Virus record (IMG/VR): IMGVR_UViG_3300016674_000123
Coordinates: 1 to 51,376 of that record
DNA from: a virus
Lineage: Duplodnaviria; Caudoviricetes
Strand: one strand, 5' to 3'
DNA: 51,376 bases
Shown here one piece after another: positions 10,926 through 47,661 of this stretch. The position numbers and the translations under genes are program-made. The notes beneath the pieces were generated by a model, which saw only the letters and a program-made list of their open reading frames with translations, did not search any database and had not been told where the DNA came from. The stretch's first letter is position 1, and each line of letters begins with the position of its first letter.

Positions 10926-10968
10926 CAAATATAATTAATTTTTATTTTTATTTAGACTAAATAAGAAT
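10926..10968 (-). promoter_or_regulatory. head operon promoter with overlapping Fur-box-like palindromes
   Basis: TATATTTG -7 box (10926-10933) matches the Bacteroidota TAnnTTTG consensus; 19-mers at 10944-10962 and 10950-10968. Confidence 0.6.
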
Positions 10969-11512: not shown

Positions 11513-11697
11513 TAGTATATGGTTTTAATGTTTGATATTTCGTATTGATAATGTTGTGATACTGATTCCGCACAAATTACTTCATACATTACTTTGTGTC
11601 CATCCCAAATGATAGCAGTCACCATTCGTGGCAACTGCTCAATATCATGTTTCAGATAAACTATATCCTCAATATTATATTCATTTGGTATTTCCAT
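11512..11697 (-). CDS. hypothetical protein (SH3/KOW-like)
   Basis: YNIEDIVYLK...MVTAI pattern; coupled to the portal stop. Confidence 0.55.
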   Translation of the reverse strand: MEIPNEYNIEDIVYLKHDIEQLPRMVTAIIWDGHKVMYEVICAESVSQHYQYEISNIKTIY

Positions 11698-13112
11698 TAT
11701 TCAACTATTGGATTTTGTTCTGATGCTTTTTCAGAATTAATCAAAGTCAATTCTTCCTCTGGGTTCTCAACCATATCAATCAATTTAATAGCAGATTGAG
11801 CAGACAATAAACCTGCCTCTTTTAATGATATAATAATATCTGTTGCGGTTTTAACATCATCTGGAATGATTGAATTGAAAACAATATCATAATATAAAGC
11901 ACTTCCTAATCCTGATAAAGAAGTGTTTGTGGTTTTTATAATTCCCGACATGATCACATTAATAATTCTTTCAATCATAGTTCTATTTTCTCCCTCATTC
12001 ATCGTTGACTTTATAACTGCATCAAGAAAAAGTAATTTTAAAGCAACTCCCGAAACACTACCAAGACCTTTAACGTTGTCAAATGATAAATCCGGTGTAT
12101 GTGAAATTGAATAAATCAATTCTTTTAAATTATCAAATTCAAGTTTTGAACTTTCAGCAGAATTTGAAGACACCAAAAATTCAGCACCTCCCTTAATCCA
12201 ATTTCCTGAATCGTCTTTTTTCATTGGTAAATTAATAATCTTGCCGTTATCATCTTTATTTGGCAAAGTCTTAATATCACCATGTATCAATAAAATTGGA
12301 TAAGCTGTATAATCGTTTGAATTTCCTAATTTAGACAGAGTAGTTTCGTATCTATCAATTAATTCTTTTACTTCAAACCATTCTGGCTGTTCTTGAGATA
12401 CATAAACAATAGGAATTCTATCAAATCCATGGGCTTTAGGACCTTCGTAAACTAAATCGCCTGTTTGGTCGCTTAATTTATGATAATTAAGTTCATCCCA
12501 AATTTCAATAATATTGAATTCTTTTCCATTTTCACTTGCTTTATATTTCCACATAAATAGCTCCATATTTCCGTTTTGCCCGAAGTATGGAGTCATTTGT
12601 CCTTGTGTATTATCAAGAATTTTTGATTTAATCTCTTTAACCTGTTTATTTAACTTAAAAAAAGATAAAACTTTATTTAAAAGTGAATTTTCTGTTGAAT
12701 CCGCAATATAAAATTGAATTGCAGCTTGAGTTTCTGATTTTTTCAAAGAAACTATTTGTTGAATAGCTGCATCAATTCTGTTTATCTTCCAAATCTGATA
12801 AATCAATTTTGATAAATTGTTTTCTGCTGAAGGAATTAAAGTTACTGGCTTTCCTACTTCAAAAGCTGTTGCAGTAGTAACTATTTTTTTTGCAAAATTT
12901 ATCGGAATACGAACAGCTTTTACTATTTTACCTCCAGTTATTGGTTTATCAACTTGTGTATTTCCAACTTGACTCTCTCTAAGCTTTCTATCTTTGTCCT
13001 TGTATTCCTTTTGATATTTTGAGATATCTTCTACATTTTTAGACTGCGCTTCAATAGTTGCAATCACTTTTTTTGGGTCGGTTTTTAAACCGTCTAATAA
13101 ATTTGTTTCCAT
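11697..13112 (-). CDS. portal protein (SPP1-type)
   Basis: 471 aa; NFAKKIV, HGFDRIPIV, LIDRYE, TPDLS and SGVALK motifs; follows terL. Confidence 0.92.
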   Translation of the reverse strand: METNLLDGLKTDPKKVIATIEAQSKNVEDISKYQKEYKDKDRKLRESQVGNTQVDKPITGGKIVKAVRIPINFAKKIVTTATAFEVGKPVTLIPSAENNLSKLIYQIWKINRIDAAIQQIVSLKKSETQAAIQFYIADSTENSLLNKVLSFFKLNKQVKEIKSKILDNTQGQMTPYFGQNGNMELFMWKYKASENGKEFNIIEIWDELNYHKLSDQTGDLVYEGPKAHGFDRIPIVYVSQEQPEWFEVKELIDRYETTLSKLGNSNDYTAYPILLIHGDIKTLPNKDDNGKIINLPMKKDDSGNWIKGGAEFLVSSNSAESSKLEFDNLKELIYSISHTPDLSFDNVKGLGSVSGVALKLLFLDAVIKSTMNEGENRTMIERIINVIMSGIIKTTNTSLSGLGSALYYDIVFNSIIPDDVKTATDIIISLKEAGLLSAQSAIKLIDMVENPEEELTLINSEKASEQNPIVE

Positions 13113-13117
13113 GGTTA

Positions 13118-14587
13118 TTAATAATTAATGTTTTTTAAAGTTTCTGTGTCAGTTTCAAGTATTGCCGATTCTGAATTATGCGCAATGTGGCCATAACGAG
13201 CCATATCCCAAATGTGGTTAAACTTATCGATAGGCTGATTAATAGCGATTCCACCGATTTCTTTCATTCGGTAGTTTTGTTGTTCCTTTAGTGCTTCTCG
13301 GTAAAGATGATTTTTAACAATATGAATTTTTTTAGTTTTCATAGAGTTAAGCCAAAACATAACCGATTTAGTTTTACTGATTTTATAAGCATTTATAAAA
13401 CCTCTTTGTTTCAATCCTCGAACCATTTCAACTGTTCCTTTGTTTTCTCCAGTGTATTTATCCGCAGAATCACAAGGGATAATGTCTTTAGCTGGGTCAA
13501 TTCCGAGCTCTTCCATTAAAGAAGCTAAAGCATCAGGAGTTTCTATTGGTTCATAACATAACGGCTCAATCCAAATGTTGTACTCATCCTCTGCATATTT
13601 TCCAAGCACATTTGGATCTGTTGTAAATCCAAAGTCATTTGGATAAATTGGCGCTTTATCTTCTGGGAATTTATCAATCCATTCAACGTATGGGAAAATA
13701 ACTCCTTTCATTGCGCCACGTAAACCAAGTCCGTAAACTTTCCAATTGAACTCGTCAGCAGTTCCGTTTTGAATGTTTGTTGGGTGCGGTGGTGGTTGGT
13801 TTGTTGATGTTACAGGCTCAATCTTTTTAGTGAGCTTATTGTAACACATTATCACAGAATTTTTAACAATGTATGATCCTGGCTTCCATGGTTCCCAACC
13901 AAGTATTTTGTTTTTCTCCCCAGCAGAAATATGTTTATTATCAAGATAGGTGGTTCGAAGAAAAACAACATCAGGACGAGTAAGTACTTTATCAAAAAAC
14001 CAATGGTCTGTAACTGAAGGGTTGTAATCCGCCCACCAAAACTTACGACAACGCAATTCTACTTGGTCAAATACGGATTGCTTAATAAACATTATCTCAT
14101 TAAAAAAGGCATAGTCACAACCTCCACCATGCTTACCGTCTCCAAGAAAGAATATTTTGCTTTTTCCAATCTTAAAAGACTTTACCTCGTCGTTATTATG
14201 AAATTTATTTGGCAGTCCGTAATCGTCAAGCCTGCGCTTGAAATCATCGTAAAGAGTAGTTTTAAATTCGTTGTAGGTTTCACGATAAATGTTGATTGTA
14301 CATCCTTTTGGCTCGTAGTAAAGACAAAGCCAAATAATAATATCTACACCTGACCATGTTTTTCCAGAACGCGACGAACCTTCAAGTCCAGCGCCACGAA
14401 ACCCAGAAACAAGCACATCATCGCCTTTTTCATCTTTCTCGTACTTCTGTTGAGTGATTGACTCAAATAGGAGTTTATAATTAGGGTTGGTATCTTCGTC
14501 TATTTTGGTTAGCTTTTTGCGTGAAATGTCAATCCCTTTTTCTTTCAAGAGAGTTTCAAGTTCCAACATTTCAGCATCTGTAAGCAT
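13118..14587 (-). CDS. terL: terminase large subunit (PBSX/SPP1-like)
   Basis: Walker A GSSRSGKT, Walker B AFFNE, DYNP, nuclease DFGFTTDP and NHIWDMARY. Confidence 0.93.
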   Translation of the reverse strand: MLTDAEMLELETLLKEKGIDISRKKLTKIDEDTNPNYKLLFESITQQKYEKDEKGDDVLVSGFRGAGLEGSSRSGKTWSGVDIIIWLCLYYEPKGCTINIYRETYNEFKTTLYDDFKRRLDDYGLPNKFHNNDEVKSFKIGKSKIFFLGDGKHGGGCDYAFFNEIMFIKQSVFDQVELRCRKFWWADYNPSVTDHWFFDKVLTRPDVVFLRTTYLDNKHISAGEKNKILGWEPWKPGSYIVKNSVIMCYNKLTKKIEPVTSTNQPPPHPTNIQNGTADEFNWKVYGLGLRGAMKGVIFPYVEWIDKFPEDKAPIYPNDFGFTTDPNVLGKYAEDEYNIWIEPLCYEPIETPDALASLMEELGIDPAKDIIPCDSADKYTGENKGTVEMVRGLKQRGFINAYKISKTKSVMFWLNSMKTKKIHIVKNHLYREALKEQQNYRMKEIGGIAINQPIDKFNHIWDMARYGHIAHNSESAILETDTETLKNINY

Positions 14588-14589
14588 TT

Positions 14590-14850
14590 TTAACTTTTAT
14601 AGTTTATTTTCCAAAAACCAACTTGTTTATAATCATCTGAAATACCACCATTAACGCCGTCAATAATTTTAAAAGGCTTAGTACTTAATAATGTTTGGTC
14701 AACCACGAGAAAAACAGTATTAGTATCATTTCCAACTTCAATAAATAAAGGCTTTACTGGCTTCATAGAATCGGTACATTCTTCTAAACGAACAGCCCAC
14801 GCATGTTCTACGTTTTGGACCTCTATGTATGTTTGTGGTATAATTTTCAT
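14590..14850 (-). CDS. hypothetical protein
   Basis: 86-aa ORF in operon. Confidence 0.6.
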   Translation of the reverse strand: MKIIPQTYIEVQNVEHAWAVRLEECTDSMKPVKPLFIEVGNDTNTVFLVVDQTLLSTKPFKIIDGVNGGISDDYKQVGFWKINYKS

Positions 14851-14858
14851 AACATTTT

Positions 14859-15206
14859 CTAAATGAATAAATGTTCCTTTTTTGAAACGATGTTAGCGTC
14901 TTTCAATAACACCGTAAAGTTGTATGCAGAAGCTCTTGATATGTGCAATTTTTCGGCACGCTCAATAAGTTCCTCTGAACTGAAAATAAACATCGAGCAA
15001 ACTATATCAATTAAATGTCTTCGCTCTAATGTGTTTCTTAATCGTTTTGCTTTGATATAAGCGTTTATTTTATCTCTGCGGTCTGAATGGCTAGCAACCA
15101 TATTTTCTTTTGAATCTAACGAATCCAAAACAGCCAAACCAATAAGTGTTGGGTCGGTTGTCTTTTTTCCTTGAACGTAAACTTTATTATTTCTGATTAT
15201 TATCAT
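14859..15206 (-). CDS. Fur-family winged-helix DNA-binding domain with a novel N-terminus and no metal-binding/dimerisation domain
   Basis: YIKAKRLRNTLERRHLIDIV...F...L...ISRASAYNFTVLLKDANIVSK follows the Fur N-domain pattern R-x-T-x-ER ... SRAT-x-YN-x3-LL ... V-x-K. Confidence 0.7.
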   Translation of the reverse strand: MIIIRNNKVYVQGKKTTDPTLIGLAVLDSLDSKENMVASHSDRRDKINAYIKAKRLRNTLERRHLIDIVCSMFIFSSEELIERAEKLHISRASAYNFTVLLKDANIVSKKEHLFI

Positions 15207-15423
15207 TTTCGATGATTTCTTTAATTAGTTTAAATTCAGTAATTGAAGTCATATACTGCTGAACATAATCAAGACCAAGTCTTTTTGCTTGCTCGTAATC
15301 GTGGTAAATGTTTTTGTAGTTCTTGGTTAGCAGTTTTTGTTTGAACTTATCAGTTCCTTCAAGAGATTTGAAATACTCGGTATTTTCAATAACCGCGACG
15401 AAGTTTGTAATATTTACTATCAT
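15187..15423 (-). CDS. hypothetical protein
   Basis: 78-aa ORF directly downstream of the ncRNA cluster. Confidence 0.6.
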   Translation of the reverse strand: MIVNITNFVAVIENTEYFKSLEGTDKFKQKLLTKNYKNIYHDYEQAKRLGLDYVQQYMTSITEFKLIKEIIENDNNQK

Positions 15424-15445
15424 AATGTTTTTTATTATGAAACAC

Positions 15446-15685
15446 GAAAAGCAATTTTGACAATCTGTTTTTTATAAGCAACGAAAGGCTAACGTTATAC
15501 GACCAGATTTTGCGTTGTTCTAATTTCTCGGTTCTTAACAAGGGAAGATTAAAAACCAATACATTACCCTATAACCTCAACGCAGCAGAATGATTTGACG
15601 AGCTATAAACAACCCGATAGGTTCTACTTGCTCATTTGTGCCTAACGCATGGGTATCGCTAAGGGGATGAGCTAAATTGCTTTTC
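15446..15685 (-). ncRNA. candidate ~240-nt multibranch structured RNA
   Basis: Perfect 12-bp terminal stem GAAAAGCAATTT/AAATTGCTTTTC enclosing several nested stems; no ORF. Confidence 0.6.
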
Positions 15686-15712
15686 AATATTTCAATTAAC
15701 AACTAAATTTTG

Positions 15713-15783
15713 TAGCGGATGCCAGACTCGAACTGGTCTTATGGATTATGAGTCCATCGTGCTAGCCATTACACTACACCGCG
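15713..15783 (-). tRNA. tRNA-Met(CAT), atypical
   Basis: D arm GTGT/GCAC, anticodon arm ATGGA-CTCATAA-TCCAT, T arm CCAG-TTCGAGT-CTGG; acceptor stem irregular with C1:U72 mismatch. Confidence 0.8.
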
Positions 15784-15914
15784 ATGTTGAAAGTCTTTCC
15801 TTTCTGTCAACTCTAGTTATCATCAACCTAACCTTAGCGTAACAATTCCGAGTAAGAACGAGTGGTCTTTCTTTTAAAATCCGTAGCCACTATTGAGGAT
15901 TCCTTCTTTAAAAT

Positions 15915-16000
15915 TGTGGAGGATAACGGATTCGAACCGCTTACTCTGTTGATACAATGTGCACTTACCAACTCTGCTCTATCCGATGAGCTACTTCCAC
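15915..16000 (-). ncRNA. tRNA-like RNA with enlarged anticodon arm
   Basis: Acceptor GTGGA/TCCAC, D arm GCTC/GAGC, T arm AGCGG-TTCGAAT-CCGTT; anticodon arm GTTGGTA/TATCAAC with an 11-nt loop. Confidence 0.7.
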
Positions 16001-16086
16001 TTGATCATTCTTTCGCTTTTAACCCAAAGGAAACAGTTTCACAGTTAACGAAGGGAGCTTCCCATATTGTCTGAAGCTAATGGCCT

Positions 16087-16323
16087 TTATTTTTTGATAC
16101 CTCGTCTTAAACGATTTACCTTGTTTTTAATCTTTTGACTTTTACTCGGGAAATAAATCGGTGAGTAGGATGGACCGAAATATGTCGGAGCACTAGGTCT
16201 ACCATCAAATTTGTGAGATTGTTCCGTTTCATTTTTTAATTGATTCATACTCTTTGAAGCCTGTTCCGCTTGTGAAGCCAAACCAAACATTGCAGCAGCT
16301 AACCCGATAATTGATTTTCTCAT
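16087..16323 (-). CDS. hypothetical protein (hydrophobic N-terminus, basic C-terminus)
   Basis: 78-aa ORF downstream of a promoter. Confidence 0.6.
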   Translation of the reverse strand: MRKSIIGLAAAMFGLASQAEQASKSMNQLKNETEQSHKFDGRPSAPTYFGPSYSPIYFPSKSQKIKNKVNRLRRGIKK

Positions 16324-16346
16324 AATTTATTGTTTTTTCGTTGCAT

Positions 16347-16388
16347 CAAAAATAATACATTTTGCAACATAATTGCAAAATATGTTAT
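16347..16388 (-). promoter_or_regulatory. promoter with inverted ATAACATATTTTGCAA-type operator pair
   Basis: TATTTTTG -7 box 16347-16354; motif copies at 16352-16367 (14/16) and 16373-16388 (perfect, inverted). Confidence 0.65.
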
Positions 16389-16406
16389 TATTTATTTAAA
16401 AAAAAT

Positions 16407-16886
16407 CTAAACATTGAGTTTAGAAGCTTTTTCGAGTAATGCCTCAAGTCTTTTTTGCTTTTCTTCGCTAAACTCAAAAGAATCAGGAATTAAAGGGTTT
16501 TCTTTATCACCACGCAATACGGTTACTTTTGGAATATAAAGACCTTCAAGCTTTGTGATTTCCTTTTTAATTGAATTGATAACGGACATTCCTTGCGGTG
16601 TACCTTTATAGCTTTCTTTCATGTTACGAATATCCTGTTTTAATTCAGCTATTCGCATGATACGCTTTTGCTCAATGGTTGCTTCTTCGTCTTGTTGCCA
16701 TGCAACGTAGGCTTTTTTAAGAAGTTCCTTTGCTTGGCGACGGCTTATATTGTTTCCGTCTTTGTTTTGGAATTGGTTGCAAATGTTTTTAAGTATCAAA
16801 TAATCGGGCACACCATTAATAATCCACCCTTGAATGGTGAATACACGTCTTTCTGTTTCTTCTTTGGAAGATCTAACGCCAGCCAT
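16407..16886 (-). CDS. putative terminase small subunit
   Basis: 159 aa; N-terminal HTH-like segment (ISRRQAKELLKKA), helical core, KLEGLY and GDKENPL tail; upstream of terL. Confidence 0.55.
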   Translation of the reverse strand: MAGVRSSKEETERRVFTIQGWIINGVPDYLILKNICNQFQNKDGNNISRRQAKELLKKAYVAWQQDEEATIEQKRIMRIAELKQDIRNMKESYKGTPQGMSVINSIKKEITKLEGLYIPKVTVLRGDKENPLIPDSFEFSEEKQKRLEALLEKASKLNV

Positions 16887-17186: not shown

Positions 17187-18671
17187 CTAAATTACTTCTG
17201 TAGATTCTTCGAGCTCGCCAAGGTTTAATTCAGGATAATTTTCTTTGATTTTCTTCGGGTCGCCTTTGTAGAAAACTAACACGTTTTGGTGCATTTTACC
17301 AACCTTACGACCTCCGTTGAATTGTCGCCTTACTCGAATAGCTAAAGAACCCACAACGTTTACTAAAATGATTTCGTTGTATAGTTCCATTCCAGCATCT
17401 TTAAAGGCTTGAATAGTATCGCTGACAAAGTTGTAATAGAATCCGTTTTTGTCGCGAACATCACCCACCACGAAACACGCAAATCGGTCGTCTTTTAGTT
17501 GGGCAACTGATTTTTTAATGATTGAAAAGTAAACTTCTTTAAACTGATCATAATCCATATTGGATAAATCTTTTGGGTCGTCGCTATACTTTTCAAGGTC
17601 GGCATAAGGTGGGCACGAGTAAACGAAATCAAATTCTCTTTCTTCACTTACTTTAGTTCCTAAAACTTCATTACTATCTCCAGCGAACCATTTAACAGTT
17701 GCTGGTCCTAATCCTAAAATATTAGCTTGCTTTCTATTTGCTTCCACTTGGTCATCGCGCAAATCAATTCCTAAATAATCATAACCAAGTACGCCAGCAA
17801 CTACACCACGAACAGAACCACCAGCAAATGGGTCTAATATTCTTCCACCAACAGGACAGAACCAACGATAAGACAATTCACAAAGTACTGGGTCAAAGAT
17901 ACTCGCGCCTTCGTAAACGTGCATTCCTTTTTTCTTGGCGTAATCAATGATTTCATCCCAAGTAGGCTCACGTTGTAACATGTCGCGCATCTTGTTCTTT
18001 AGTTCGTAAATTCCTGTTGATTGACCGCTTTTAGCGATTAGCTCGACATCCTCGCGAGTTTCTTGTGAGTTGAAACCTAATTGTAACCATTTTCTTTTAC
18101 GTTCTTGCCACGCTCCAGAACGAGTATCTAATATCGAGAAAGGAGGGAAGATGAAACTGTCTTTTAACGATGAAGGTGTGATTTTGTCTCCTGGCTCAAT
18201 TCCTGATGATTGATTTAATAAACCTTGAAAGGCAATATCATCAAATTCAGGAATATTCATTATCGCTTGCAAATCTGGAAAATCCAAATCGAAGTTCTTA
18301 ACGAAGTCAAGTAATCCTTGTTGAGTGATTTTTGCGTATGCAGATGAATAAACCAAAACCAATTCAGCTGCTTCTTTCATGTCCTTGCAGTTGATAAAGG
18401 TTGCTGGTAGCATTTGTGGAACTTCATAACCGTTTTCGGCAACGGACATTAAATCCAAAAATCTATGTCTTCCGTCAAGGCAATAGTTTATGCCGTTGTG
18501 GTGCCATACCTTGAACGGGTCAGCAAATTGATATTTAAGCAACGATTCGATTAACTTCTTGTCGCCATTAGGCAACCATTCTTTGAAGTCTTCTTGTTGG
18601 ATGAATTGAAGTTCTAACCACTTTATGGGTTCGGTTTTGATAATGCGTGATTCAATAACAGCTTGACTCAT
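17187..18671 (-). CDS. ParB/Srx-like domain fused to amino-DNA methyltransferase
   Basis: N-terminal LDGRHR; SAM-binding LDPFAGG; catalytic SCPPY. Confidence 0.85.
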   Translation of the reverse strand: MSQAVIESRIIKTEPIKWLELQFIQQEDFKEWLPNGDKKLIESLLKYQFADPFKVWHHNGINYCLDGRHRFLDLMSVAENGYEVPQMLPATFINCKDMKEAAELVLVYSSAYAKITQQGLLDFVKNFDLDFPDLQAIMNIPEFDDIAFQGLLNQSSGIEPGDKITPSSLKDSFIFPPFSILDTRSGAWQERKRKWLQLGFNSQETREDVELIAKSGQSTGIYELKNKMRDMLQREPTWDEIIDYAKKKGMHVYEGASIFDPVLCELSYRWFCPVGGRILDPFAGGSVRGVVAGVLGYDYLGIDLRDDQVEANRKQANILGLGPATVKWFAGDSNEVLGTKVSEEREFDFVYSCPPYADLEKYSDDPKDLSNMDYDQFKEVYFSIIKKSVAQLKDDRFACFVVGDVRDKNGFYYNFVSDTIQAFKDAGMELYNEIILVNVVGSLAIRVRRQFNGGRKVGKMHQNVLVFYKGDPKKIKENYPELNLGELEESTEVI

Positions 18672-18707
18672 TGGGATTTAATTTTTTATTTTGGTTATAT
18701 TTTACAA

Positions 18708-18748
18708 CAAAAATAACATATTTTGCAACAATATAACATATTTTGCAA
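18708..18748 (-). promoter_or_regulatory. promoter with tandem 16-bp operator repeats
   Basis: TATTTTTG -7 box 18708-18715; ATAACATATTTTGCAA at 18713-18728 and 18733-18748. Confidence 0.7.
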
Positions 18749-22870: not shown

Positions 22871-22903
22871 CAAATATAAAGTAAAATGCAAGTATTATGC
22901 AAG
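22871..22903 (-). promoter_or_regulatory. internal early-type promoter/operator
   Basis: TATATTTG box; 29/33 identical to 39185-39217. Confidence 0.7.
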
Positions 22904-39184: not shown

Positions 39185-39269
39185 CAAATATAAAGCATTA
39201 TGAAAGTATTATGCAAGTACTTGAATAAATAATTACTCATTTTACTTGTAATTTATATTCATTATAAAT
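39185..39269. promoter_or_regulatory. immunity control region: leftward promoter, TGCAAGTA-type operators and a Fur-box-like palindrome
   Basis: TATATTTG 39185-39192; TG(A/C)AAGTA at 11-bp spacing plus inverted TACTTG copies; ATTTATATTCATTATAAAT 39251-39269. Confidence 0.65.
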
Positions 39270-39279
39270 AAAAAACAAA

Positions 39280-39984
39280 ATGAAAATAGGGGAGAGAATA
39301 ACGGAACTACTTGAAAAGAAAGGCATTACAGCATATACCCTATCTAATGAAACAGGAGTGTCTCAAGGAACATTAAGTAGAATAATTAAAAAACATACTA
39401 AACCAAATGCAAGTAATTTGAAAGCAATTTCAGATTATTTTAAAGTAAGTCAGACTTGGTTATTGACAGGTAAAGAATATGATATTTCAGAAACAAATAT
39501 TAATAACACCATTACATCTGAAATAAAAGAGGTAGATTTTGACGAATTTATGGAAGCCGAATACTTGCCAATTAAAGTTCAAGCTGGTTACTTAAGTGGT
39601 TTGGAAGAAAAAAAACCAATTGAATTGAAAAAAATGCTCGTCCCTAGAGAGTTTGAAAAAGGTTATTATAAAGTAATAGAAATTGAAGGTGATAGTATGA
39701 ATGACGGAACTCCTCGCTCAATATGCGATGGGGATAAATTACTTTTAAAAGAAATTGAAGGTGGTAATTATTTGCAAAAAATACTACCTTACCGAAATAA
39801 TTTATTTGTAATAGTAAGTAGCGAAGGCATCGTGTGCAAGCAAATTATTGATCAGAATATTGAAAAAGAGTGTATTGTTTGCCATTCTTTCAATCCTCTT
39901 CATAAAGATTATGAAATTTGCTTTAAAGATATATACCAACTATTTACTGTTAAAAAACTAGTTGAACGTAAAATAAAATTCTAA
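39280..39984 (+). CDS. CI-like repressor (XRE HTH plus S24 autoprotease)
   Basis: HTH LSNETGVSQGTLSRI, Ala-Gly site VQAG, catalytic GDSM and VCK. Confidence 0.92.
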   Translation: MKIGERITELLEKKGITAYTLSNETGVSQGTLSRIIKKHTKPNASNLKAISDYFKVSQTWLLTGKEYDISETNINNTITSEIKEVDFDEFMEAEYLPIKVQAGYLSGLEEKKPIELKKMLVPREFEKGYYKVIEIEGDSMNDGTPRSICDGDKLLLKEIEGGNYLQKILPYRNNLFVIVSSEGIVCKQIIDQNIEKECIVCHSFNPLHKDYEICFKDIYQLFTVKKLVERKIKF

Positions 39985-40890: not shown

Positions 40891-42105
40891 ATGAAAAAAC
40901 TTCACTTCGATTGTGAATGCTCTGAAGTATGGGCTTCACCAAAAAACTGGAAAACAATTACAGGTAAAAAAGCATTATCATTAAATTGGTATGTTCAATG
41001 CGTTTTTCACGATCCAAAATTCAAAGAAAAATATCCAAATGGATTTCCATACAGAAAAAAGTTAAACAAACTTAAAACTTTAGAAGAAAGAAAAGCAGCT
41101 GTTGAACTCTACATTGATGAAATTCCAAAGCTATTTTTTGATAAAGGTTACAATCCAATTACTAAAACTTTTATGATTGAACCGGTGCAAGAAGTTAAAA
41201 ATGAATTAATTGAATTATGCCCAGAAACTCCTTTTAATATTTCTTTGGATTTAGCTATGGCCACTATTAAAAAAGCAGATAGTACAATGGATGATTTGAA
41301 TTCTGTTGTTAAGAATGTAAAAAAATCGGCAATGCAATTGCGATATGATGATATTGCCGTTTCTGAAATCACAAGAAAACATATAAAGTTGATCATTGAT
41401 AATTTGGAAAAGGTCGACGGAGAATTTTCGGCACATAAATTCAATAAATATCGCTCTTATTTAAGCATTGTTTTTTCGGAACTATTGGAATGGGAAGCAA
41501 TAAAATCAAATATTGTTCGCGATATATCCAAAAGAAAACAAGAAAAGAATATCCGTGAAGTACTTACCAAGGAACAAAGAATACAAGTTGTAAATCACCT
41601 GAAAAGGTTTCATCCCGAATTTCATACTTTCACGCAAATATTCTTTCACTCGGGAATCCGTATAACAGAATTACTTTCTGTAAAAGCGGAGCATGTAGAT
41701 TTGAAAAATCAAAAATATAAAGCATTGATTAAGAAAGGAACTTCTTATGAATGGAAAGAGTGCGTTATAAAAGATGTTGCTTTGCCTTTTTGGAATAAAG
41801 CAGTTTTTGGAGCTCGAAAAGATGATTTTGTTTTTTCTACTGGCTTGGTTCCAGGAACTAAACCATTAAAGTATAATGCAATTCGCTTACGTTGGAAAAG
41901 AAATGTAAAAACGATGCTAAACATTACAGCCGATTTTTATTCGCTTAAACACTTAAATTTGGATGAAACTACCGAATTATTATCTTTGGAAGATGCAGCA
42001 CGTATGGCAAACCACAAAGGAACTAAAATGATGAGTAGTGTTTATGCCGTTGGTGAGAAGCAAAGACAGTTTGAGAAATTGAAAAAAGTAAGTAATAGTT
42101 TGTAG
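40891..42105 (+). CDS. int: tyrosine integrase
   Basis: SGIRITELL (R), IKKG (K), FYSLKH, ANH and VY catalytic positions; next to attP. Confidence 0.92.
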   Translation: MKKLHFDCECSEVWASPKNWKTITGKKALSLNWYVQCVFHDPKFKEKYPNGFPYRKKLNKLKTLEERKAAVELYIDEIPKLFFDKGYNPITKTFMIEPVQEVKNELIELCPETPFNISLDLAMATIKKADSTMDDLNSVVKNVKKSAMQLRYDDIAVSEITRKHIKLIIDNLEKVDGEFSAHKFNKYRSYLSIVFSELLEWEAIKSNIVRDISKRKQEKNIREVLTKEQRIQVVNHLKRFHPEFHTFTQIFFHSGIRITELLSVKAEHVDLKNQKYKALIKKGTSYEWKECVIKDVALPFWNKAVFGARKDDFVFSTGLVPGTKPLKYNAIRLRWKRNVKTMLNITADFYSLKHLNLDETTELLSLEDAARMANHKGTKMMSSVYAVGEKQRQFEKLKKVSNSL

Positions 42106-47625: not shown

Positions 47626-47661
47626 CAAATGTAATTATTTTTATTCAGTCTAAATATAAAT
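47626..47661 (-). promoter_or_regulatory. fibre/lysis operon promoter with overlapping Fur-box-like palindromes
   Basis: TACATTTG 47626-47633; 19-mers at 47637-47655 and 47643-47661. Confidence 0.6.

What the first reader, a model, noticed from the sequence alone, without database searches (positions are those of the whole stretch)
14859..15206. Phage-encoded Fur DNA-binding domain without the metal sensor
Seen: the C-terminal ~70 aa follow the Fur N-terminal winged-helix pattern (R-x-T-x-ER...F...SRA-x-x-YN...LL...V-x-K). The protein stops where the His/Cys-rich metal-binding dimerisation domain of Fur would begin. A different N-terminal module (IIRNNKVYVQGKKTTDPTLIGLAVLD) is fused instead. 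The gene lies two genes upstream of terL. Inference: an iron-blind Fur mimic that could displace host Fur at the phage's own Fur-box-like late promoters, or repress host iron-uptake (TonB receptor) genes to block superinfection. With the boxes, this is the best candidate for an undescribed regulatory system here.
Basis: partly seen in the sequence, partly recalled or inferred. Interest (0 to 1): 0.82.

Follow-up and report, generated by a model that had tools for sequence, protein, structure and literature searches.

The report
Phage Fur-type DNA-binding domain, sensor-less
A temperate phage of Bacteroidota carries a small gene next to its DNA-packaging genes that joins the DNA-binding half of a Fur-type metal regulator, without the metal-sensing half, to a short module of unknown function; what it controls is still open.

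Summary
ORF 14859-15206 (minus strand, 115 aa) is a conserved gene. Residues ~40-115 are a Fur-family winged-helix DNA-binding domain: profile-profile probability 99.8%, E 2.4e-27; Fur, Zur and PerR rank first in two fold searches. The protein ends after the wing, so it has no dimerisation or metal-binding domain. Residues 1-38 form a separate mobile module. That module occurs alone, fused to other tails, fused after the Fur domain, or split from it within one genome.

The "Fur mimic at Fur boxes" reading is only partly supported. The recognition helix carries the PerR-type Asn, not the Fur-type Arg. Canonical Fur and PerR boxes are barely enriched. The real boxes are a conserved AT-rich palindrome at two late promoters. 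They also occur in related phages without the Fur domain and in many other viral contigs.

The gene is not the small terminase: three related loci and one related record have a recognisable TerS elsewhere in the same cluster.

Best reading: a metal-independent phage DNA-binding regulator in the packaging/late module, target unproven. It is a new variant of a known kind, of moderate interest.

The parts
14859..15206 (-). Gene for the 115-aa two-domain protein (stop codon included)
   Evidence: ORF list; 46 homologues, 44 of them exactly 115 aa; alignments A1 and A2
15093..15206 (-). N-module, residues 1-38: beta-hairpin (2-5, 8-11) plus helix (19-32), then a low-confidence linker (34-38)
   Evidence: AF2 model. 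Invariant G13, K14, T16, D18, T20-G23, L27, D28. Found alone, with other tails, or after the Fur domain in other proteins
14862..15089 (-). Fur-family winged-helix DNA-binding domain, residues 40-115 (four helices plus wing); the protein ends after the wing
   Evidence: hhalign 99.8%, E 2.4e-27; fold searches; PDB profile alignment in register
14898..14936 (-). Recognition helix, residues 91-103, with Y95-N96 (PerR-type Asn where the aligned Mur/Fur chain has Arg)
   Evidence: Helix limits; alignment to Mur/Fur chain 5fd6; conservation of Y95 and N96; Asn/Arg rule from PMC8638967 passages
15187..15423 (-). orf78, the upstream gene that overlaps the target by 20 nt; conserved partner in close relatives and present in L016
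   Evidence: no family hit
14590..14850 (-). orf86, inserted between the target gene and terL; absent from the four close relatives
   Evidence: In L001-L004 the homologue is followed by terL after 3 nt; no family hit
13118..14587 (-). Large terminase subunit (terL)
   Evidence: Pfam Terminase_3 and Terminase_6N; PHROG phrog_2
16407..16886 (-). orf159, candidate small terminase (unproven)
   Evidence: No family hit. The model has N-terminal helices, a long helical hairpin and a C-terminal helix. TerS chains appear only as weak rows. It sits where G022 and G001 have a phrog_51-type TerS. It shares a C-terminal acidic/basic tail with recognised TerS proteins, judged by eye
10948..10964 (.). Palindrome TTATTTAG-W-CTAAATAA, 14 nt upstream of a TATATTTG -7-type box, before the scaffold and major-capsid operon; candidate operator (link to the protein is inferred)
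   Evidence: Conserved in L001-L004. Downstream genes from PHROGs
47641..47657 (.). Second copy of the palindrome (2 mismatches), 7 nt upstream of a TACATTTG box, before the operon that runs to holin and endolysin
   Evidence: The second copy is conserved about 15 kb from the first in G002, G005 and G006. Operon content

Best explanation
The gene encodes a small phage DNA-binding protein made of two independent parts. Residues 40-115 are the DNA-binding half of a Fur-family regulator: helices 1-4 plus the beta wing. Their closest full-length relatives are a Bacteroidota Fur-like clade with Tyr-Asn in the recognition helix. Everything a Fur protein uses to dimerise and to sense metal is missing, so DNA binding cannot be gated by iron, zinc or peroxide. 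Residues 1-38 are a beta-hairpin-plus-helix module that belongs to the packaging/late gene cluster of this phage group. I infer that this module supplies self-association or docking, which an isolated winged helix needs in order to bind a palindrome.

The protein most likely acts on phage DNA, as a constitutive regulator made at the head of the terminase-portal operon. The prime candidate target is the conserved palindrome that sits in the -33 region of the two late promoters (capsid operon and lysis operon).

Shown: domain identity, truncation, modularity, synteny, conservation of the palindromes.
Inferred: DNA binding, oligomerisation through the N-module, the target, the direction of regulation.
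For: Domain identity.

Truncation: longer family members keep the Fur wing up to its '...FEL' strand and stop there. The window protein ends after the wing.

Modularity of a Rosetta-stone kind:
- N-module then domain, in 43 aligned family members.
- Domain then N-module, in P0090.
- N-module-only and domain-only genes in the same genome, in G015, G041 and G049.

Position: directly before terL in 4 of 4 close relatives. It is always inside the cluster that runs from the TerS position to terL in more distant phages.

Palindromes:
- Two copies per genome, about 15 kb apart, at the capsid and lysis promoters in the window and in G002, G005 and G006.
- A wider-spaced version occurs twice in G001 and twice in G003.
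- The backwards-read control pattern gave 0 or 1 matches per record.
- In the complete genome G049 the domain-only gene ends about 140 nt upstream of the capsid-promoter palindrome.
- Nekkels_1, the closest cultured phage by TerL (61% identity), has neither the gene nor the palindrome.
Against: - No binding data exist.
- The palindrome does not track the Fur domain. G001 (98% complete) and G022 (83% complete) keep it with only an N-module protein. G039 (87% complete) has it with no family gene at all.
- Of 50 palindrome-bearing records, only 11 carry any family gene and only 6 carry the Fur domain. Many of the 50 are fragments or probably chance matches in very large genomes.
- Half-site spacing differs between two phages that both have the fused protein: 8-1-8 in the window and 8-7-8 in G003. 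That is awkward for one rigid dimer.
- Co-occurrence is confounded by common descent, since the phages share TerL at 67-80% identity.
- The gene lies in a variable stretch that also holds a tRNA, a signal-peptide ORF and, in L017, an acyl carrier protein. It could therefore be an accessory gene aimed at the host.
Confidence: 0.45

Rival explanations
1. Host-directed mimic. The sensor-less domain occupies the operators of the host's own Tyr-Asn Fur-like or PerR-like regulator whatever the metal or redox state, and so re-programmes the host regulon during infection or lysogeny.
For: The closest full-length relatives form a clade whose 80 best genomic matches are, by my reading of the record titles, Bacteroidota in 78 of 80. 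That clade shares the recognition-helix pattern, including Tyr-Asn. The phage is temperate: it has a CI-like repressor and an integrase. The gene sits in a variable, moron-like stretch. PHROG phrog_13084 (169-position profile, unknown function) matches the Fur domain of two family members, P0054 and P0068, at E about 1e-8.
Against: The operator of that host clade is unknown, so no host site could be scored. No Flavobacteriales title appears among the 80 best matches, although the nearest cultured phage infects Cellulophaga; the ranking was by likeness to one query, so this is weak. The gene's fixed place in the packaging cluster, and the N-module's fixed place even without the domain, point to a phage-internal role.
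Confidence: 0.2
2. Packaging accessory. The protein helps the terminase recognise or bend phage DNA, as a TerS-like or TerS-assisting factor. The N-module would dock on TerL or TerS and the winged helix would hold the DNA.
For: The gene lies immediately upstream of terL, separated by 3 nt, in 4 of 4 close relatives. N-module genes lie between the TerS position and terL in L005, L007, L014, L017, G022 and G049. The window has no recognisable TerS.
Against: A recognisable TerS coexists with an N-module or two-domain gene in L006 (phrog_1482), L007 (phrog_51), L016 (phrog_606) and G022 (64% identical to the L007 TerS). The domain order is the reverse of usual TerS proteins (recalled, not tested). 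orf159 is a better TerS candidate by position and predicted architecture. In G049 the Fur domain is encoded after the portal gene, away from the N-module.
Confidence: 0.15
3. The winged helix is used for protein contacts rather than DNA. For example, it could be a polymerase or sigma-factor adaptor, as in the activation domain of T4 MotA.
For: The best BFVD row is a MotA activation domain (E 0.13, probability 0.97, 71 columns). PDB 1bja appears at rank 34. N-module proteins without any DNA-binding domain keep the same genomic place.
Against: The matches are weak. Residues typical of the Fur DNA-binding domain are kept across the family: T59, E61, R62, Y95 are at least 90% conserved in A3. Homology to DNA-binding Fur domains is strong.
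Confidence: 0.1

Closest known systems
Fur-family metalloregulators (Fur, Zur, PerR, Mur, Nur; Pfam PF01475), especially a Bacteroidota clade with Tyr-Asn in the recognition helix and two CxxC pairs
   Same: Homologous N-terminal winged-helix DNA-binding domain: helix 1, the T-x-E-R motif, recognition helix with Tyr, and the wing.
   Different: No dimerisation domain, no structural Zn site and no regulatory metal site. An unrelated 38-residue module is fused at the N-terminus. It is phage-encoded, beside terL. The window protein is below Pfam and NCBIfam thresholds.
PerR subtype of the Fur family
   Same: Asn follows the conserved Tyr of the recognition helix (N96). PMC8638967 (passages) gives this as the mark of PerR and Irr, against Arg in Fur.
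   Different: No peroxide-sensing metal site. PerR-box matches are only weakly above chance: 33 against 23.5+-4.6.
Isolated DNA-binding domain of E. coli Fur (PDB 2fu4)
   Same: Same extent of fold: model residues 46-115 align to chain residues 3-83, Z 7.5, rmsd 2.6 A, 24% identity.
   Different: By its PDB title, 2fu4 is the isolated DNA-binding domain of a full-length regulator. Here the truncated form is the natural gene, with its own added module.
Small terminase subunits (TerS)
   Same: Small DNA-binding protein encoded next to terL.
   Different: A separate recognisable TerS exists in L006, L007, L016 and G022. The domain order is reversed (recalled). There is no TerS family hit.
Late-gene activators encoded just upstream of terminase genes in Gram-positive siphophages (RinA, ArpU, LtrC types; recalled from the literature, not checked here)
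   Same: A small DNA-binding protein at the head of the packaging/late module. This is a possible analogue in function.
   Different: No sequence relationship: no such Pfam or PHROG hit. Different fold family and different host phylum.

Membership tests
Fur family (PF01475) | N-terminal winged-helix DNA-binding domain homologous to Fur | tested here: met
   hhalign 99.8%, E 2.4e-27. Fur-family chains top two fold searches. The family profile reaches canonical FUR proteins.
Fur family (PF01475) | Scores above Pfam's gathering cut-off (23.1 bits) | tested here: not met
   The window protein has no FUR hit at E<=1. 6 of 8 distant two-domain relatives pass, but only over profile positions 2 to about 75 of 121.
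Fur family (PF01475) | C-terminal dimerisation domain | tested here: not met
   The protein ends after the wing at residue 115. The alignment to canonical members stops at template column 91 of 167.
Fur family (PF01475) | Structural Zn site (two CxxC pairs) and/or regulatory His/Asp/Glu metal site | tested here: not met
   There is a single Cys (C70), no CxxC and no His cluster in the 115 aa. The canonical relatives keep CxxC...CxxC.
PerR subtype | Asn rather than Arg after the conserved Tyr of the DNA-binding helix | tested here: met
   Y95-N96 align to Y-R of chain 5fd6. N96 is at least 90% conserved in A2. The rule comes from PMC8638967 passages.
PerR subtype | Peroxide-sensing regulatory metal site with Asp | tested here: not met
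   The domain that would carry this site is absent.
Small terminase (TerS) | Match to a TerS family model | tested here: not met
   No TerS Pfam or PHROG hit. TerS proteins of related loci do not match any window ORF by phmmer.
Small terminase (TerS) | It is the only small DNA-binding gene partnered with terL in related phages | tested here: not met
   A recognisable TerS coexists with a family gene in L006, L007, L016 and G022.
Small terminase (TerS) | Ring-forming oligomer that binds TerL | not testable with these tools
   Needs biochemistry.

The most novel reading that the evidence does not exclude
The N-module and the sensor-less Fur domain are the two halves of a modular late-gene switch of Bacteroidota phages. 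They occur fused in either order or split into two genes. The switch acts on a 17-29 bp AT-rich palindrome (core TTATTTAG-W-CTAAATAA) that replaces the -33 promoter element at the capsid and lysis promoters and that is spread over at least 94 viral-contig stretches. The Fur domain would have been captured from a host metalloregulator and stripped of its sensor to make a constitutive phage transcription factor.
Probability: 0.25. Interest if true: 0.75.

Novelty: new variant of a known kind. Interest (0 to 1): 0.55.

Why it matters
Fur-family proteins are textbook one-component sensors in which DNA binding depends on a metal-loaded dimerisation domain. Here a natural, conserved family keeps only the DNA-binding half and joins it to a different small module. 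An exhaustive search found 137 representative proteins at E<=0.001. This shows that phages can strip a host-type sensor down to a constitutive DNA-binding part. It also offers a compact system for asking what the Fur winged helix needs in order to bind DNA. Together with the conserved palindromes at two late promoters, it gives a directly testable candidate for late-gene control in temperate phages of Bacteroidota, where such control is, to my knowledge, little studied. If the target instead proves to be host operators, it would be a phage tool for overriding host metal or redox regulation.

Tried and rejected
- Homodimer prediction of the full protein (2 copies, alignment A3): no answer, score 0.05 against a mark of 0.42, controls not run. 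It says nothing either way.
- Direct Pfam, PHROG and NCBIfam scans of the window protein: no usable hit.
- megablast of 13000-16500 and tblastn of the protein against GenBank phages: no match.
- ESM Atlas, for the N-module and for an N-module-only protein: no usable hit.
- PHROG scan of eight N-module-only or N-module-plus-tail proteins: no family covers the N-module. The only strong hit lies in the tail of P0151 (phrog_38014, unknown function). The two two-domain proteins scanned in the same call hit phrog_13084 over the Fur domain.
- Is orf159 the TerS? The PDB profile search found nothing. In Foldseek, TerS chains appear only at E 2-3. VIA-align gave only generic helical hairpins, best Z 7.1. 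This stays open.
- Canonical Fur and PerR boxes in the window: weak enrichment only. The best PerR-like site, with 1 mismatch, is at 39253-39267, 13 nt before the CI-like repressor gene. I did not follow it up.
- Palindrome near host Fur-like genes: 0 core matches in 80 loci, 478 kb.
- Co-variation of palindrome spacing with presence of the Fur domain: rejected. All four combinations occur.
- tRNA scan: ARAGORN found none, but Rfam found one.
- Literature: no paper on a phage Fur domain without sensor in searches. The palindrome strings gave no hit in one search. From PMC8638967 I read passages only. Caux-Thang 2015 is known to me only as cited in those passages. The Nekkels phage paper (PMC8776804) I saw only in a search listing. 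No supplements were consulted.

Full report
**What is there**

The finding's coordinates hold an ATG-started ORF of 115 aa on the minus strand (14859-15206). It sits in a tight minus-strand row:
- orf78 (15187-15423), which overlaps the target by 20 nt;
- the target gene;
- orf86 (14590-14850);
- terL (13118-14587; Pfam Terminase_3 and Terminase_6N, PHROG phrog_2);
- an SPP1-type portal gene (11697-13112).

Upstream lies an ORF-poor stretch that holds a tRNA(CAT) (15714-15782, Rfam 47.1 bits). ARAGORN missed this tRNA.

The window is nearly a whole temperate phage genome. It has a CI-like repressor (39280-39984), an integrase (40891-42105), a holin and an endolysin. The nearest cultured phage by TerL is Cellulophaga phage Nekkels_1, at 61% identity.

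**Is the gene real?**

The word-indexed protein search gave 46 homologues at E<=0.01 among 51 candidates. 44 of the 46 are exactly 115 aa, at 55-100% identity, all from metagenomes or viral contigs. One short outlier (P0045) looks frameshifted and was dropped from the profile.

**Is it a Fur domain?**

The window protein itself has no Pfam, PHROG or NCBIfam hit. Evidence comes from profiles and structure:
- The profile of 23 homologues hits Mur/Fur chains of the PDB in the correct register (query 48-110 against chain 9-74), but only at E 0.055.
- An exhaustive hmmsearch of 1.84 billion representatives gave 137 proteins at E<=0.001, 30 at <=1e-10 and 3 at <=1e-30.
- Among these hits are proteins of 143-168 aa matched over their first ~80 residues. 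All 10 of 10 that I scanned are PF01475 FUR above the cut-off.
- Of 8 more distant two-domain members scanned, 6 hit PF01475 above the cut-off, and only over profile positions 2 to about 75 of 121.
- hhalign of the two-domain family (A3, 43 sequences) against 24 of the canonical hits (A4) gave probability 99.8%, E 2.4e-27, over 88 columns. The alignment ends at the wing.
- The AF2 model (pLDDT 79.5, pTM 0.59) has strands at 2-5 and 8-11, a helix at 19-32 and a low-confidence linker at 34-38. Four helices follow (40-53, 60-71, 77-86, 91-103), then a wing.
- Foldseek against the PDB puts Fur-family chains in 9 of its top 10 rows (best E 0.02, none <=0.001).
- VIA-align against 48,161 chains ranks XcZur first (Z 9.6, rmsd 2.4 A, 78 residues). 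PerR (8.7), H. pylori Fur (7.9) and the E. coli Fur DNA-binding domain (7.5) follow. 10 of the top 13 are Fur-family; the first other winged helix scores Z 7.1.

Longer family members keep the Fur wing up to its '...FEL' strand and stop there. The window protein has one Cys, no CxxC and no His cluster.

This is the DNA-binding half of a Fur-family protein, and the dimerisation and metal-binding half is absent.

**Which Fur?**

In the alignment to chain 5fd6, Y95-N96 of the phage protein align to Y-R. N96 is at least 90% conserved among close homologues, and Tyr is at least 90% conserved across the wide family. PMC8638967 states that Asn or Arg in DNA-binding helix H4 distinguishes PerR from Fur, and it cites Caux-Thang et al. 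2015 for this. I read passages of PMC8638967 only and did not read the cited paper.

The canonical proteins closest to the phage family also carry Tyr-Asn. They keep two CxxC pairs, and most lack a His-rich stretch before the first CxxC. A genome scan seeded with seven of them returned 432 relatives. By my reading of the record titles (taxonomy recalled), 78 of the 80 best are Bacteroidota; the other two are a MAG labelled Mycobacteriaceae and an Ignavibacteriales MAG. None is Flavobacteriales. No NCBIfam equivalog claims these proteins; PerR is the best-scoring below-threshold family for 4 of the 6 scanned and Bacillus-type Fur for the other 2.

**The N-module**

Residues 1-38 are conserved: G13, K14, T16, D18, T20-G23, L27 and D28 are invariant. 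The module behaves as an independent unit:
- It occurs alone, in proteins of 35-70 aa.
- It occurs fused to unrelated tails.
- In P0090 it lies after the Fur domain instead of before it.
- Fur-domain-only proteins of 76-86 aa also exist.
- In three viral records (G015, G041, G049) an N-module-only gene and a Fur-domain-only gene lie in the same genome.

Fusion in both orders plus split forms is classical evidence that two parts work together. But a 98%-complete relative (G001) has only an N-module protein and no Fur domain anywhere, so the N-module also has a role of its own. I found no fold or family lead for it.

**Synteny**

- In the four close relatives (76-86% identity) the gene is followed by terL after 3 nt. 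The window's orf86 is an insertion.
- In L005/L013 and L014, an N-module-only ORF of 51-53 aa sits directly before terL. In L017 it is separated from terL by one small ORF.
- A recognisable TerS coexists with a family gene in L006 (phrog_1482), L007 (phrog_51) and L016 (phrog_606), and in G022 (64% identical to the L007 TerS).
- The family gene is therefore not the small terminase, although it always lies in the stretch from the TerS position to terL.
- In the window that upstream position is held by orf159 (16407-16886). It has no family hit. It has a TerS-like predicted layout and only weak TerS fold rows. I treat it as an unproven TerS candidate.
- The stretch between it and terL varies between phages: tRNA, a signal-peptide ORF and, in L017, an acyl carrier protein.

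**The boxes**

The Fur box gives 17 against 9.8+-3.6 expected (5 of 100 shuffles reach 17). The PerR box gives 33 against 23.5+-4.6 (2 of 100 shuffles reach 33).

What is really there is a perfect palindrome, TTATTTAG-W-CTAAATAA, at 10948-10964. It lies 14 nt upstream of a TATATTTG box, just after a terminator and before the scaffold and capsid genes. TAnnTTTG is the Bacteroidetes -7 promoter element as I recall it; I did not check this here. A second copy, with 2 mismatches, lies at 47641-47657. It is 7 nt from a TACATTTG box, before the operon that runs to holin and endolysin.

- Within one window the pair is not significant: 13 of 100 shuffles give as many matches. Comparison with relatives makes it real.
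- The first copy is kept in L001-L004.
- G002, G005 and G006 each have two copies 14-16 kb apart. That matches the window's two copies if the genome is read as circular.
- The backwards-read control pattern gave 0, 0, 0, 1 and 0 matches in the five records.
- G001 and G003 each have two copies of a wider version, TTATTTAG-N7-CTAAATAA.
- Nekkels_1 has neither the gene nor the palindrome.
- In the complete genome G049 the Fur-domain-only gene lies between the portal gene and the capsid-promoter palindrome. It ends about 140 nt before the palindrome.

**Evidence against a simple gene-box pairing**

It is often part of a 29-bp palindrome followed by a TAnnTTTG box. My rough estimate is that some of these are chance matches in AT-rich DNA.
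- I submitted 50 of the 80 listed loci to a search for the gene family. 11 of the 50 records have a family gene, and only 6 of those include the Fur domain.
- Among records at least 80% complete, G011 and G049 have the domain, G022 has only an N-module protein, and G039, a 363-kb record and a giant-virus bin have none.
- All four combinations of spacing (8-1-8 or 8-7-8) with presence or absence of the Fur domain occur.
- No copy of the palindrome core lies within 3 kb of 80 host Fur-like genes.
- The phages that share gene and box also share TerL at 67-80% identity, so common descent explains much of the co-occurrence.

**Reading**

Shown:
- a conserved phage gene for a Fur-family DNA-binding domain without sensor;
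- a mobile N-module that is linked to it by fusion and by split forms;
- a constant place in the packaging/late cluster;
- a conserved palindrome at two late promoters.

Inferred:
- the protein binds DNA independently of metal;
- the N-module gives it the self-association or docking that the missing Fur C-domain would have given;
- its target is phage DNA, with the late-promoter palindrome as prime candidate.

I put 0.45 on this. The rivals are a host-operator mimic (0.2), a packaging accessory (0.15) and a protein-contact adaptor (0.1). The remainder is unassigned.

**Novelty**

The domain is known. New here are the architecture (sensor-less, fused to a new module in either order, or split) and the setting in a phage packaging cluster. 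My literature searches found no description of it and none of the palindrome strings. These searches cover only the held library.

Noticed in passing
window 15714-15782 (-), and about 15925-16010 (-): A tRNA with anticodon CAT (Rfam RF00005, 47.1 bits, E 1e-8) that ARAGORN did not report. By eye, a second tRNA-like stretch with an over-long anticodon arm lies about 150 nt upstream; no tool called it.
   Followed up: partly
viral contigs L102-L181; window 10948-10964 and 47641-47657: The palindrome TTATTTAG-W-CTAAATAA, often extended to a 29-bp perfect palindrome (14-1-14), occurs in at least 94 viral-contig stretches. It usually lies 6-31 nt upstream of a TAnnTTTG box and is often present twice per genome. 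It looks like a widespread promoter-linked element of Bacteroidota phages whose binding factor is unknown. The literature string search found nothing.
   Followed up: partly
window 16407-16886 (-): orf159 has no family hit. Its predicted layout (N-terminal helices, long helical hairpin, disordered linker, C-terminal helix) and its position suggest an unrecognised type of small terminase. Homologues occur in L001-L004, L017, G011 and G049.
   Followed up: partly
window 14590-14850 (-): orf86 is inserted between the Fur-domain gene and terL in this phage only; it is absent from L001-L004. It has no family hit.
   Followed up: no
window 22871-22903 and 39185-39217 (also 39392-39424): A 33-nt direct repeat (88% identity between the first two copies) holds a tandem ATGCAAG-like motif. 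One copy lies in the divergent region beside the CI-like repressor gene and one in the intergenic region at about 22.8 kb. These are candidate operators of the lysogeny switch.
   Followed up: no
window 39253-39267: The best PerR-box-like site in the window (1 mismatch) lies 13 nt upstream of the start of the CI-like repressor gene. The surrounding 34 nt are 76% complementary to the late-promoter palindrome region at 10935-10968 (pair I6).
   Followed up: no
window 16330-16384 and 18691-18745: Two similar 55-nt intergenic segments (71% identity) with a TTG...TAnnTTTG layout. They are probably ordinary host-type promoters, placed before orf 16087-16323 and before the ParB-methyltransferase gene.
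   Followed up: no
window 17187-18671 (-): A 494-aa fusion of a ParB-like nuclease N-terminus with an N6/N4 DNA methyltransferase (PF01555; phrog_498, phrog_15396). It is conserved just upstream of the packaging cluster in all relatives.
   Followed up: no
proteins P0091-P0174 (alignment A4); loci L019-L098: The Bacteroidota Fur-like clade closest to the phage domain keeps two CxxC pairs, but most members lack the His-rich stretch before the first CxxC, and it has Tyr-Asn in the recognition helix. No NCBIfam equivalog covers it, so its signal and operator appear to be uncharacterised.
   Followed up: partly
L017 5741-5983 (441-kb metagenome contig): An acyl carrier protein gene (phrog_5934, E 2e-14) sits in the variable stretch between the orf159 homologue and terL of a related phage-like region that is embedded in a 441-kb contig.
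   Followed up: no
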